Assembly (NCBI GenBank): GCA_965226795.1
Contig: CBDDDZ010000003.1
Coordinates: forward strand, 582,870 to 646,869
Length of the DNA stretch: 64,000 nucleotides
From: Candidatus Latescibacterota bacterium
Lineage (GTDB): Bacteria; Latescibacterota; UBA2968; GCA-2709665
Reading direction: 5' to 3'
Shown here: piece after piece, positions 34,356 through 56,555 of the stretch
How positions within the stretch are numbered: position 1 is the first letter of the stretch
Layout of the letters: every line of letters begins with the position of its first letter
Notes under the pieces: model-generated
Database searches by the model: none
What the model was told of the DNA's origin: nothing
The model's input: only the letters and a program-made list of their open reading frames with translations
Made by a program: the position numbers and the translations under genes

Positions 34356-34820
34356 GGTTGTGCTCGGGGCCTGTTAGGTCAATTCTCTCTGTCTTTATCC
34401 TTTGTTTTTCACTTTTCTTCGTCCACTTTCGGACTGCCAAACGGTTCTTACCGCGTGGTCTTTTGACGGACAACTTCCTCTTGGAACTGCGTTCCGGGCG
34501 CACACAGACTATTCCTCCCTCCTCACCTTCTAATTTATCTTTGTCCTTTTTCTTGCATCGCCCAAGAAAAAGGACGAAAAAGAAGGGCGCCTGCCTGCCG
34601 AGCACGTCTCGGCGCAGGCAGGCCGCTCAGACGCCGCGGGGCTGCTTTTCCGCGCCGTCGTTGCATTTGTAGGGGTAACTCCTGGAGTTTCCCACGTCAT
34701 GGCGCTTAAAAACGCTCGTTGATGTCGCGCGTCCGTATCGCTAACCTGTGTTGGCTGTCTGCCGGGTCGGGGGTGGACTTCTTCCATCTACCGTCTCACC
34801 TCTCGCCGCTGTTTGCTGAC
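34356..34820 (+). repeat. Modular intergenic repeat, copy 1 (core deleted)
   Basis: GGTTGTGCTC..CCTGTTAGGTC; GGAACTGCGTTCC; hairpin 34543-34575; palindrome 34590-34622; GTAG hairpin at 34669; CCGTATCGCTAACC. Confidence 0.85.
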
Positions 34821-34849
34821 CCATTATTGCTCACCAGGGGAGGAAAACC

Positions 34850-35434
34850 ATGAAGGGTACCGGAATCGCAGCAGCAGTCGTTGGAGGAATCGCCATCGGC
34901 GTCAGTCTTATCGCCGTCGCCCACGAGGACCACAACAGGGATTCCCGTCTCAAGGCCACGGCGTTCACTGCGATAACGCCGATCCTGAACGTCCGAAGCG
35001 TCGAGGCGAGCATCGAGCACTACACCTCGGTTCTCGGCTTCAAAAAGGACTGGGACTGGCCTGCCGAGAATGAGGACAAGACCTTTGCCTCTATATCCAA
35101 TGGCGAGGTGAACATCTTTCTCGCCGAGAATGCTCAGGGCGCCCGACCTGTGTGGATTTACTACGGCGTCGGTGACGTCGACGAGCTGCACGAGGCGTAC
35201 ACGGCGGCGGGGGCGGATATAAAACAGAAGCCCGTTGACCAGCCCTGGGGCGCGCGGGAAATGCTGGTTGTGGACAAGGATGGCCATATTCTGCGCATCG
35301 GCGGGTCAAGCAAGAAAGAGCACGGCGAGGGTAAGGAGGGGGACGGCGACGGTAGGAAAGAACACAGTGAGGGTGAGGAAGAACACGGTGAGGGCAAGAG
35401 CGCGCGCGGTGAGAGCGAGGAAGGGCACCATTAG
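34850..35434 (+). CDS. VOC/glyoxalase-bleomycin resistance family protein with signal peptide and His/Glu-rich tail
   Basis: ITPILNVRSVEASIEHYTSVLGF and DQPWGAREMLVVDKDGHILRIG motifs. Confidence 0.85.
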   Translation: MKGTGIAAAVVGGIAIGVSLIAVAHEDHNRDSRLKATAFTAITPILNVRSVEASIEHYTSVLGFKKDWDWPAENEDKTFASISNGEVNIFLAENAQGARPVWIYYGVGDVDELHEAYTAAGADIKQKPVDQPWGAREMLVVDKDGHILRIGGSSKKEHGEGKEGDGDGRKEHSEGEEEHGEGKSARGESEEGHH

Positions 35435-36237
35435 AGCGGCCGTTGTATAACCGGAGAACCCTTGAACGAATCCTCCGTAATGCCGGTCTCCTTGCTTACA
35501 CGTCGAGCCGCCCTTTCGTAGAGAATGTCGAGATTTGCCTCAGTAGTACTTTCTCCAACATAGTGCTCCTTGAAAGTCGTGTTCAATATTGCGAAGATCT
35601 CTGGCGAGACGACGCCGATTGACTCTGCCAGTTTCCACTTCTCGATTTGCTTCTCGATCTGAGAAAAACGTGTTTTGCCAGCGTCACAAAAATAAGCTTC
35701 GTCGTTGCGGTCTGTCGGTACCAACCAGCAACGATCATAATCTCCATAGTCTACTTAGAGCGGCATTTCCCTTTCAAAAAAGGTGTCGTGGGGCATATCT
35801 GGTTCGCCGTTCTCTGAGGCCGCAGGCCAAAAGCGCTTGACTTCGATTTTCCAAATATGTTTTGCATCTGCCATGGATCGGATGTTCCAAAAATTGAGCA
35901 CTTCCATATAAGCGTATTTTTCGATGTGATTGTAAAAGGCTCTGCAGAGACGGCGTAACACAGATATGTGTTTTTTCCAATCGAGCCTACAGGAATCCAG
36001 CAAGATATACGATTTTGCCATTTCCTCTCGAGCAGTAGTGAGAATAAACTTGGCAGATGCATGGCGCCCGGCGTCCGTTAGATATCGAGCATCCGAAACG
36101 AGACGATTTGCATTGTTGTAACTGGCAGAAATCCCTTCGGCAATTAGATCGAGGGATCTCAAGGGCGTACATTCTTCGAAAAGGTTCTTGTACAGTAAGT
36201 CTGCTGGATTAGGCCTATTATCACTGTTTGTTGACAT
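35431..36237 (-). pseudogene. AbiV-family (HEPN) abortive infection-like gene with in-frame TAA at 35755-35757
   Basis: NANRLVSDARYL...ASAKFILTTAREEMAK and FYNHIEK motifs; the same frame continues PL-stop-VDYGD to 35431. Confidence 0.7.
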
Positions 36238-36521
36238 TGTCCACATCCTTTTTCAGGAATTGTATCGAAAATGACTCCATCTTGGGGTTTGGACCAGATT
36301 TTCCGACAGAATAAGACTCGGAAAAATGACTCGCAAAGCCTGGGCAGTCCCGCGAAACGTTTCCATTCAGCATCCCACTGATCATTGTCAAGAATCACAC
36401 TATCAAGATCCAACAACATTACAATCTGGGAGGATTCCGGCGTTTCCATTTTCCACTCTTGCCTAGCCCGCAAAAGGCTGGAACGCGTGTGTTTTCTCGC
36501 GGATTCAGATGCTGACGTCCG

Positions 36522-37238
36522 TTAGCCGCATTTCAAATAATCGACCAGTTCTTCCCAAAACCGAACCACACGATTACGGTAATTTCTGATGTCCTGAACC
36601 GAAACGTACAGTCCATCGCCGACAAGCGGCTGAAACACAGGCTGGGCCACCTGGCAACGCAATCGAGTGGAACTCGAGAGGAGCGGGTTTTCAAACATAT
36701 CCGGCCGGATCTCCCTGAGCTCACGAGACGAGTGCCCATCCGCGTGTTTGACGGTATTCGCTACCAGTCGCAGCTCATCTATCTTCGCCCACGACGAAAG
36801 CTTCTTCTTATCGATGCCATACTTCTTCAATCGACAGTGAAAAACCGACATTCTAAGTAGCTCTGGATTGTTTTCCTCGTTTGGATGCAAGACGTTCTTT
36901 CTATGAAATAAAATGGTTTGCTGGTCGAAGGCATGATAAAGCGCAACCGCGAATAGATTGATTATCCCCTGACGAATGCCGATCATCAGTCCGTAATGTG
37001 AAACCCCAGCGCTGACCGCTTTATCTACAAAATCCCCTGGGTCTTCGTCTCCCGTACCCGGCATAGACATGGATTCCTCCCATCTTTCGTCCGAGAGTCT
37101 CTCCGATTCTGCTTCGATATCCTCTTCCGAGATGTTTGCAAGCAACCGTTCCTCAAGTACATCGACGGTGGCGTTGATTTGAGGCACGAATTCGGTTTGA
37201 ATTGCCTCGATCCAGAAGGGATTCCATATTTTAGCCAT
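36522..37238 (-). CDS. Hypothetical protein with HEPN-like ELRLVANTVKH motif
   Basis: GAGG RBS; helical protein with an R...NxxKH motif. Confidence 0.6.
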   Translation of the reverse strand: MAKIWNPFWIEAIQTEFVPQINATVDVLEERLLANISEEDIEAESERLSDERWEESMSMPGTGDEDPGDFVDKAVSAGVSHYGLMIGIRQGIINLFAVALYHAFDQQTILFHRKNVLHPNEENNPELLRMSVFHCRLKKYGIDKKKLSSWAKIDELRLVANTVKHADGHSSRELREIRPDMFENPLLSSSTRLRCQVAQPVFQPLVGDGLYVSVQDIRNYRNRVVRFWEELVDYLKCG

Positions 37239-55593: not shown

Positions 55594-55650
55594 AGCCGCG
55601 AGAAGCAAGATGGCAGACGCAAGAACACCCCCCGCGGGCACCCGGGGACA

Positions 55651-55755
55651 TACTGGTCGGGCATTATCACGTATCGCGTGGAGAAGATCCGGATTATATC
55701 CGTTCGCCGTTCGCGAAAGGAGGAGATAGAACTCTATGAAAGCGAAAGAACTTGA
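55651..55755 (+). pseudogene. brnT: C-terminal fragment of BrnT-family toxin
   Basis: YWSGIITYRVEKIRIISVRRSRKEEIELYE; no start codon in frame after the upstream stop. Confidence 0.75.
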
Positions 55756-55963
55756 CGAAAGGTTCGACAGAGGAGAAGACATCTCCGAATTCCTGGACGT
55801 TGCGCGGGCGAAAAGACCTGCTCAGGAACAGAAGCGGGTGAACGTCGATTTTCCAATCTGGATGGTTCGTTCCCTGGATAAGGAAGCCAGGCGTCTGGGC
55901 GTAACGCGCCAGTCGATCATCAAATTCTGGATCGCGGAAAGATTAAAGCTGGTGTCTTCATGA
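55736..55963 (+). CDS. brnA: BrnA/CopG-family antitoxin
   Basis: MKAKELDERFDRGEDI...KRVNVDFPIWM..LDKEARRLGVTRQSIIK. Confidence 0.85.
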   Translation: MKAKELDERFDRGEDISEFLDVARAKRPAQEQKRVNVDFPIWMVRSLDKEARRLGVTRQSIIKFWIAERLKLVSS

Positions 55964-56017
55964 AACGGATGGGGAGTGGGCTGGAGGCAAGGTAACAGAG
56001 GAATGCGTCTAATGATG

Positions 56018-56555
56018 GGTTGTGCTCCGGGCCTGTGAGGTCATTTCCCTCTGTCTTATAATCTTATTTTTCTTGGTCCTTTTTCGTTTTATCCGTTGCA
56101 TCCTGTTACGTTTTCTAATTCTGGACTACCATTGCTGGAACTGCGTTCCGTGCAGATACAGACATCTCCTCTCCATTCAACCTTCTATTTTTCTTCGTCC
56201 TTTTTCTTGTACGCCCAAGAAAAAGGACCAAAAAGAACGGCGCCGCTCGGCGCGGGGCCGGTTTTTCCGCGAATCGCCTAACCGCCTGATAAAGGCGTCG
56301 GTGCCCTGCGTACCCATACGAACACACGGTGCTCCAGTGCTGGACGGATAAGCGCGGAAAGAACCCCCACCTCCGACACCGGCCGCGCTGTTTTTGCATT
56401 TGTAGGGGCAACCTTTATGGTTGGCCACGCGATGGCGCGCATATCGCTGGTTAATCTCGACGGTCCGTATCGAAAACCGCTGTAGGCGGGGTTGCGGTGT
56501 GGTCTTCTCACCTCTCCCGTCTTACGTCTAATCGCCGTTAGCTGATCGCTGACCA
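56018..56555 (+). repeat. Modular intergenic repeat, most complete copy (78-nt core 56275-56352; lacks the 33-bp palindrome)
   Basis: All modules in order, including hairpin 56197-56228 and GTAG hairpin 56402-56426. Confidence 0.85.

What the first reader, a model, noticed from the sequence alone, without database searches (positions are those of the whole stretch)
34356..56555. Dispersed non-coding repeat family with covarying hairpins and a fixed-length hypervariable core
Seen: many intergenic stretches share modules in a fixed order. These are GGTTGTGCTC..CCTGT(T/G)AGGTC, a pyrimidine tract, a GGAAC-TGC-GTTCC hairpin, a GTCCTTTTTCTTN-loop-NAAGAAAAAGGAC hairpin, CCGCTCGGCGCGGGGCC, and then TTTTC-CGCGAAT-[core]-CGCG-GAAAA. 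The main hairpin shows compensatory changes (inner pair G-C, A-T or T-A; outer T-A versus C-G), as does the closing stem (CGCG/CGCG versus CACG/CGTG). Four cores (39487-39564, 42426-42503, 50333-50410, 56275-56352) are all exactly 78 nt and align without gaps, yet only 21 of 78 columns are invariant by my hand count. Conservation is limited to a central GCG.C..TGCCC and a terminal TGCTG(G/A)ACGGA-like block. The one frame I translated has stops in two copies. Inference: heavy substitution without indels does not look like neutral decay. It suggests a structured RNA or ssDNA with length-constrained variable segments (guide-like, conceptually similar to IS110 bridge RNA loops), or copying by a substitution-prone polymerase (DGR-like). 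GAAAAA varies to GAAAGA, GAAAAG and GATCGA, but five of the invariant core columns are A, so adenine bias is not established. No cognate enzyme was recognised in the window.
Basis: partly seen in the sequence, partly recalled or inferred. Interest (0 to 1): 0.88.

Follow-up and report, generated by a model that had tools for sequence, protein, structure and literature searches.

The report
Triplex-knot repeats with swappable loops
This uncultured bacterium carries about a hundred non-coding repeats in which a knotted, probably three-stranded fold sits beside an unfolded loop of fixed length, and related genomes show that the loop can be swapped while its surroundings stay; what moves or reads the repeats is not known.

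Summary
Real. The four 78-nt cores are gap-free with 21 invariant columns and belong to a family of 112 genome hits in two subtypes, A and B, found in all 14 congeners searched. Read on the opposite strand, the 'main hairpin' is stem 2 of an H-type pseudoknot whose first loop is an exact parallel match of the purine strand (8/8 predicted triples in 69 of 71 A copies; stem 1 paired in 68 of 71, with compensation). The core is an unstructured loop closed by a covarying stem; its length is held (182 of 200 A cores within two lengths). At syntenic sites with the flank kept, 5 of 10 cores are near-identical and 5 are replaced. Guide and DGR readings fail: no targets, no adenine bias, no IS110, no RT in 8 of 16 carriers. 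Best reading: a non-autonomous structured repeat whose loops exchange by recombination; enzyme unknown. This scan noted the family and the knot before on other DNA; core swapping was not in the notes I retrieved.

The parts
56195..56243 (-). Type-A handle: predicted H-type pseudoknot (stem 1 CGCC/GGCG, loop 1 UUCUUUUU, stem 2 GUCCUUUUUCUU/AAGAAAAAGGAC) with loop 1 as parallel third strand
   Evidence: fold predicted from sequence and covariation, not measured
56243..56261 (-). Small GC-rich hairpin/linker between closing stem and handle
   Evidence: CCGC/GCGG versus CCGU/ACGG variants seen by eye; my scripted count of it returned nothing
56262..56362 (-). Type-A closing stem (56262-56271 with 56353-56362) around the 78-nt open loop 56275-56352 with anchors GCGAAT, TGCCCT(R)C, TGCTG(R)ACGGA as read on +
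56018..56194 (.). Variable tail on the handle side (head motif, pyrimidine tract, GGAAC hairpin)
50159..50435 (-). Complete type-A copy: tail, handle 50220-50268 (CGCG/CGCG stem-1 variant), inserted 33-nt palindrome, core 50333-50410; core differs from that of syntenic copies in relatives (0.49-0.50)
39460..39700 (+). Complete type-A copy in the other orientation: core 39487-39564, handle 39632-39680
42426..42535 (+). Truncated type-A copy: core 42426-42503 and one stem arm, no handle
34541..34655 (-). Type-A handle and arm without a core
46671..46717 (.). Isolated stem-2 hairpin without loop 1 or core
54065..54151 (-). Type-A handle and arm fused back-to-back to a type-B core
50614..50763 (+). 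Type-B copy 1 (core about 50614-50690, handle 50728-50763; stem 1 GCGAC/GUCGY, loop 1 UUUU); faces the A core at 50333, 357 nt away
50993..51141 (+). Type-B copy 2 of the tandem array (period 372-378 nt)
51365..51513 (+). Type-B copy 3 of the tandem array
54156..54467 (+). Type-B copy (core about 54156-54230, handle 54432-54467) split by a MITE insertion
54265..54426 (.). Separate 162-nt MITE whose ends resemble those of an IS630-like element of the genome; longer versions of this MITE carry type-A copies elsewhere
   Evidence: IS630 assignment from my recognition of the protein and the TA ends, not from a family scan

Best explanation
5' to 3' on that strand: variable leader, closing stem, about 78-nt open loop with three short anchors, small hairpin, then an H-type pseudoknot with a pyrimidine-motif triple helix (8 triples in A, 4 in B). 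SHOWN: copy number, covariation of closing stem and both knot stems, exact loop-1/purine-strand match, no fold inside the loop, held loop length, gain and loss of copies, capture of one subfamily in an IS630-type MITE, and exchange of whole or half cores between copies. INFERRED: the knot and stem are the handle that a trans-acting, still unidentified protein (or stalled replication) engages; the loop is a spacer measured by length, not a message; cores are exchanged by homology-guided recombination or template switching between the conserved arms and anchors, so old core lineages are shuffled among sites rather than mutated afresh at each site.
For: Knot: 69 of 71 G000 A copies with a stem-2 hairpin have 8/8 triples, 68 of 71 pair stem 1 (fourth pair C-G 53, G-C 16), B 29 of 29 for both; loop 1 and stem 1 were not used to select these copies. 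Loop-1 length tracks the purine tract across subtypes: 8, 7 and 4 nt. On 25 chosen rows 99.3% of cells pair, 18 two-sided changes against 4.4 in shuffles, and every one-sided change is a G-U type on this strand. Open loop: interior folding z about 0 on both strands, no covarying helix. Length: 182 of 200 A and 59 of 63 B cores in two lengths at mean identity 0.51 and 0.59. Exchange: bimodal core identity at syntenic sites; half-core swap at the central anchor in L087 and both-flanks-kept swaps in L072 and L009; tandem units about 99% alike over some 450 nt carry different cores; 12 of 76 G000 cores share one half but not the other with another copy. Mobility: many syntenic empty sites; no orientation bias to neighbouring genes.
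Against: No enzyme found: nothing mobile or nucleolytic recurs among 168 adjacent ORFs; RT and Y1 transposase do not track the element. No sharp ends or target duplication outside the MITE-borne subfamily; only 4 of 59 paired MITE ends enclose an A core. Only 2 of 76 G000 A cores have a partner at 95% or more (median nearest neighbour 0.76), so fresh full-length donors are mostly not visible. The strict swap count is small (5 of 10; 2 of 6 with both flanks kept; 0 of 5 for B), the genomes are related and exchange DNA, and crossovers inside long arms could give the same picture. Core differences are richer in transversions (217/232) than flanks (58/38), which leaves some room for error-prone copying. 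Recombination alone does not explain the held length. The triple helix and the RNA-versus-DNA question are untested physically.
Confidence: 0.55

Rival explanations
1. DNA-level instability motif with no dedicated enzyme: the handle is a class IV intrastrand triplex (a homopurine mirror repeat in duplex DNA) like PIT/BoxC; it stalls replication, promotes template switching between copies and spreads only by hitch-hiking in MITEs and duplications.
For: Hoogsteen-pyrimidine-purine order fits class IV, and such motifs are reported to sit in unstable regions of E. coli without orientation bias (PMC4666352, passages). No linked enzyme. Intergenic regions with the element collect many other repeats.
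Against: Does not need the covarying loop-loop stem 1, the closing stem, the anchors or the fixed loop length, all kept across genera and a second family.
Confidence: 0.2
2. A host-used non-coding RNA family: each copy is transcribed, the triplex protects the 3' end or binds a protein, and the loop is a variable recognition or decoy segment diversified by exchange.
For: One-strand polarity with G-U-compatible variation; architecture kept in genomes with few copies; a possible 4-bp inner helix on the same strand with only compatible one-sided changes.
Against: Copy number and positions turn over quickly; no targets for the loop; no Rfam match; transcription not shown.
Confidence: 0.15
3. RNA-templated diversification (DGR-, retron- or telomerase-like): an RT in trans reads the open loop between the stem arms and writes it, with errors, into other copies.
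For: Template-like open loop of fixed length beside a telomerase-like knot; in the strict set all 5 replaced cores keep the handle-side flank; low transition bias in cores; few identical donors.
Against: No adenine bias on either strand; G000 RTs look like group II intron proteins and lie 8 kb or more from any core; no RVT_1 match in 8 of 16 carriers, four of them single-contig genomes; cores are often 97-100% alike between species and are uniform in G015.
Confidence: 0.07
4. Programmable guide for a recombinase or nuclease (IS110 bridge-RNA-like or CRISPR-like).
For: Two variable segments of fixed length between anchors.
Against: Variable segments form related families rather than captured sequence; no match to genome or own flanks beyond control; no IS110 in G000; no core match in viral contigs.
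Confidence: 0.03

Closest known systems
PIT / BoxC / TM_ECO intrastrand triplex repeats (Holder et al. 2015, PMC4666352; passages read)
   Same: Dispersed intergenic motif able to form an intrastrand triplex, variable copy number, no orientation bias, unstable surroundings, often in inverted pairs.
   Different: Here a U/A-rich pyrimidine-motif triplex locked by a covarying pseudoknot stem and tied to a closing stem with a fixed-length exchangeable loop; the word pseudoknot does not occur in that paper's main text.
Telomerase RNA pseudoknot triple helix (review PMC4993307, passages read; loop-1/stem-2 geometry recalled)
   Same: H-type pseudoknot with a U-rich loop in the major groove of stem 2, next to a large single-stranded loop closed by a helix.
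   Different: Here the knot lies outside the closing helix, no RT tracks the element, the loop is not copied into tandem repeats, and it is multi-copy bacterial DNA.
REP/BIME/REPIN with RAYT, ERIC, BOX and the P. fluorescens R-repeats (PMC2718517 passages; PMC8049555 and PMC3686654 abstracts only; rest recalled)
   Same: Non-autonomous, modular, intergenic repeats; inverted repeats around a variable core; doublets; repeat-poor genome regions.
   Different: No GTAG-type REP unit in the element, Y1 transposase does not track it; core length fixed; knot-triplex handle. I could not compare with the R26/R200 consensus: that supplement page is a picture.
IS630-derived MITEs (RUP, Correia type; recalled)
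   Same: One subfamily sits inside a TA-flanked MITE with IS630-like ends and an empty site in G000.
   Different: Most copies lie outside such ends; the MITE is a carrier, not the element.
Diversity-generating retroelements and IS110 bridge RNA (recalled)
   Same: Fixed-length variable segment framed by conserved structure.
   Different: No coding target, no invariant template, no adenine bias, no linked RT or DEDD recombinase, no targets.

Membership tests
DGR | Adenine-specific substitution between template and variable repeat | tested here: not met
   A in 249, T in 220 of 449 differences in 55 nearest pairs
DGR | Linked DGR-type RT | tested here: not met
   6 RVT_1 hits in G000, group II intron-like, none within 8 kb of a core; none in 8 of 16 carriers
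DGR | Variable repeat inside a protein-coding gene | tested here: not met
   intergenic, stops in all six frames, no codon periodicity
IS110/IS1111 bridge RNA | DEDD recombinase in the genome | tested here: not met
   0 matches for PF01548 in G000, 95.9% complete
IS110/IS1111 bridge RNA | Loop segments match own insertion flanks | tested here: not met
   mean longest match 7.95 to own versus 7.65 to other flanks
REP/REPIN-RAYT | RAYT flanked by and co-occurring with the repeat | tested here: not met
   Y1 hits 10 kb or more from cores; present in 9 of 16 carriers and 10 of 14 non-carriers
REP/REPIN-RAYT | Short palindromic units in inverted doublets | tested here: inconclusive
   24 of 32 B cores face an A core 226-604 nt away, but the two halves are different sequences
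IS630 MITE | Terminal inverted repeats and TA duplication around the element | tested here: not met
   met only for a subfamily: 4 of 59 end pairs enclose an A core, L056 filled versus G000 empty
Intrastrand triplex (PIT-type, class IV) | Hoogsteen, pyrimidine, purine tracts in order on one strand | tested here: met
   167 of 172 pooled A handles 8/8, 47 of 48 B handles 4/4
Intrastrand triplex (PIT-type, class IV) | Triplex forms physically | not testable with these tools
   needs melting, CD or NMR
H-type pseudoknot | Loop-loop stem 1 with compensatory change | tested here: met
   165 of 172 A paired; C-G 145 / G-C 23 at one pair; 27 of 34 distinct combinations versus 17.3 shuffled; different letters in B
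Any Rfam 15 family | Score above gathering cut-off | tested here: not met
   0 in the window; only sub-threshold matches in 5 and 11 further loci
Telomerase-like RNP | Bound RT that copies the enclosed loop | tested here: not met
   no RT tracks the element; very divergent RTs could be missed
Expressed non-coding RNA | Discrete transcript from the folding strand | tested here: inconclusive
   only contigs were available

The most novel reading that the evidence does not exclude
A previously undescribed cassette-exchange system: a trans-acting enzyme recognises the pseudoknot-triplex handle, measures the loop, and writes whole or half loops from one copy into another through an RNA or ssDNA intermediate, keeping a genome-wide library of about 100 non-coding loop variants; the same handle serves related elements in other phyla.
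Probability: 0.15. Interest if true: 0.9.

Novelty: new variant of a known kind. Interest (0 to 1): 0.62.

Why it matters
Long pyrimidine-motif triple helices inside pseudoknots are best known from telomerase RNA and a few riboswitches; here one appears to be held by selection in a high-copy bacterial repeat, with natural variants that change third strand, stem and loop together. The family also offers a clean, testable case of sequence-free but length-held loops that are swapped between dispersed copies, which bears on how non-autonomous bacterial repeats persist without a visible transposase. If a dedicated enzyme exists it would be a new targeted gene-conversion tool; if not, it is a strong natural model for triplex-driven recombination.

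Tried and rejected
Covariation inside the core (mutual information, pair excess, helix scan, alignment folding): only the closing stem stands out; best inner 4-bp windows pair in about half the copies or less when they exceed the shuffled level. A 7-nt periodicity seen by eye was not significant (p 0.67-0.98). Codon periodicity and open frames: none. Self-targets and flank targets: none beyond controls. Replication-strand bias: 64 versus 43 by local GC skew, unreliable in low-skew regions, not used. Elements as gene-cassette junctions: 27 of 131 rearranged or gene-indel junctions against 32 of 189 small colinear junctions have an element nearby, no clear enrichment. A 540-nt sequence repeated beside A copies in G013 turned out to look like a decayed DUF559-type remnant with its own repeats (label recalled). 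Linked genes: only common oxidoreductase families recur among 168 adjacent ORFs from crude gene calls. Viral contigs: no core and no exact A handle; plasmids none, phages only short chance matches; metagenomes 2 loci. Public runs: contigs only; two RNA runs have contigs over the element and over neighbouring genes alike, so they show neither strand, ends nor level. The first handle count mixed in wrong-strand matches and was replaced; 13 of 38 rows of alignment A1 were dropped for A2 (12 wrong-strand, 1 out of register). Literature searches for a description of this element gave none; the library lacks most subscription journals and bioRxiv supplements are closed.
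Full report
Setting. The window is G000:C3:582870-646869 of a 5.41-Mb genome. Named records that carry the same motif are labelled Candidatus Latescibacterota, one Gemmatimonadota. Genes around the repeats are ordinary: glyoxalase, AbiV, DUF4258, DHDPS, enolase family, TPR protein, heparinase-like, BNR, SHMT, methyltransferase, CopG antitoxin, Hsp20, oxidoreductases.

Observation. The four cores are 78 nt, gap-free, 21 columns invariant. A profile built from them converges on 112 hits, 109 near full length, 79 of type A (closing stem TTTTTCCGCG/CGCGGAAAAA) and 33 of type B (GCACAGCGCG/CGCGCTCTGC). Of 110 parsed cores, 73 of 78 A measure 67 or 68 nt between anchors and 28 of 32 B measure 64 or 65; pooled with relatives, 182 of 200 and 59 of 63. 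Mean pairwise core identity is 0.51 (A) and 0.59 (B). 24 of 32 B cores face an A core 226-604 nt away. The window holds four A and four B cores. Copies show no orientation bias to neighbouring genes and are nearly absent from C5 0.8-2.0 Mb (2 of 110). No Rfam family matches.

Range. The element is in 14 of 14 congeners and two other genera, not in two more genera of the family or 12 genomes of the next family (17 of 31). The handle pattern is in 19 of 168 genomes of the phylum, with 0 control matches. Genomes of another family keep handle, closing stem and central anchor. G015 has the same A element with uniform cores (13 of 15 sampled are 78 nt, mean identity 0.81); G016 joins the handle to a different body. 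Two unrelated viral-collection contigs carry a handle that obeys the same rule.

Structure. Inside the core nothing folds: interior z-scores average 0.06, -0.07, -0.13 and 0.21 and no helix covaries. The closing stem does covary. That is an H-type pseudoknot in which loop 1 is the exact parallel partner of the purine strand (U.A-U and one C.G-C). Selecting only on the hairpin next to a core, 69 of 71 G000 A copies give 8 of 8 triples and 68 of 71 pair stem 1; pooled, 167 and 165 of 172; B gives 47 and 46 of 48 with other letters (GCGAC/GUCGY, UUUU/AAAA). 100 of 110 G000 cores have a handle within 140 nt. Loop 1 is 8, 7 or 4 nt exactly when the purine tract is. On 25 chosen rows, 99.3% of cells pair against 53-64% for slid partners; the rows are related, so this is not a probability. 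Wobble variants favour this strand (18 versus 5 at the two most variable closing-stem pairs of A). A possible 4-bp inner helix shows only one-sided compatible changes and is a hint. RNA versus ssDNA is open; in duplex DNA the motif is a homopurine mirror repeat.

How the cores vary. Cores form families shared across species and across non-syntenic sites. In 49 syntenic A comparisons 8 have both halves at 0.89 or more, 3 are intermediate, 37 have both at 0.67 or less and one has a swapped half; several share a locus and some are only in the same intergenic region. In the strict set (39 evaluable A pairs), 10 keep the handle-side flank: 5 cores at 0.97-0.99 and 5 at 0.40-0.51, none between; of 6 that keep both flanks, 2 are replaced; 0 of 5 B pairs with a kept flank are replaced. 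L072 is about 96% identical up to the GAA anchor and 88% beyond the core; L087 is identical up to the central anchor and then differs. Tandem units in G013 that are about 99% alike over some 450 nt carry different or half-different cores, and short patches are shared between unrelated cores. Replaced cores resemble other paralogues (0.57-0.84) more than their own orthologue. Against simple copying: only 2 of 76 G000 cores have a 95% partner. Substitutions among 55 nearest pairs show no adenine bias, though fewer transitions than flanks.

Mobility and enzyme. Many syntenic sites are empty in G000, mostly without clean ends. One subfamily rides in a TA-flanked MITE whose ends resemble an IS630-like element of G000 (family name from my recognition). 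No IS110; RTs are group II intron-like and distant and absent from 8 of 16 carriers; Y1 transposases do not track the element; no recurrent neighbour. Cores have no targets.

Reading. Most likely (0.55) a non-autonomous structured repeat: handle and stem under structural constraint, loop held by length, cores shuffled by homology-guided exchange. Rivals: enzyme-free triplex instability (0.2), host ncRNA (0.15), RT-templated diversification (0.07), guide (0.03). It works like modular REP/BIME/PIT repeats but is not a member of the REP-RAYT, DGR, IS110 or MITE families by the tests above.

Known and new. Intrastrand triplex repeats tied to instability are described (PMC4666352, passages); the telomerase pseudoknot triple helix is described (PMC4993307, passages); repeats with inverted arms around variable cores are described (PMC2718517, passages; its consensus figure could not be read). 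Searches for this element in print found nothing. This scan has noted the Latescibacterota family (e1-6794098, e1-3065524) and the knot-triplex module in other phyla; these are unchecked notes, not support. The word pseudoknot in e1-3065524 primed my search for it. A look-up for core replacement returned no note. Verdict: real, new variant of a known kind, interest 0.62.

Noticed in passing
L009:1720-1900, L070, L087; G000:C3:12900-13030: A third module (about 130 nt, several strong hairpins, from CGCGGAGAAT to AAACCCCC) is gained or lost just outside the A closing stem.
   Followed up: partly
window 54265-54426; 59 end pairs in G000: Abundant 56-280-nt MITE with IS630-like ends; candidate transposase at G000:C5:2234007-2235119.
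   Followed up: partly
window 50270-50302, 34590-34624, 39598-39632: A 33-nt palindrome (GCCTGCCTGCCGAGC...GCAGGCAGGC) inserts at one fixed point of the A arm, present or absent between orthologues.
   Followed up: no
G000:C2:163395-166901 and 169129-172602: Two 1150-aa DNA-methylase-like proteins each carry an in-frame Y1 transposase domain with flanking REP-like remnants; similar long frames occur in G008, G010, G016.
   Followed up: no
L166-L194 (G016), L200-L202 (G070): The same handle joined to a conserved longer body; in G016 the end resembles an IS1380-type terminus (recalled).
   Followed up: partly
G000:C5:0.8-2.0 Mb: Element-poor region around the GC-skew switch at about 1.55 Mb.
   Followed up: no
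window 11942-21214: 3090-aa ORF with 72-nt tandem repeats and longer repeated domains.
   Followed up: no
window 57486-64000: Three tandem paralogous TPR-like genes at a period of about 2567 nt.
   Followed up: no
G000 genome-wide: Two CRISPR-like repeat families and several other dispersed repeats (REP-like GTAGGGGC palindromes, GAGCYTGTCGAA units, GCTGA heptamer runs) cluster in the same intergenic regions.
   Followed up: no
G008:C1:1946229-1948146 and 2846410-2848387: Group II intron RT genes lie about 1 kb from type-A copies at two sites.
   Followed up: no
window 41012-41232: Short remnant of an enolase-family gene directly before an intact one.
   Followed up: no
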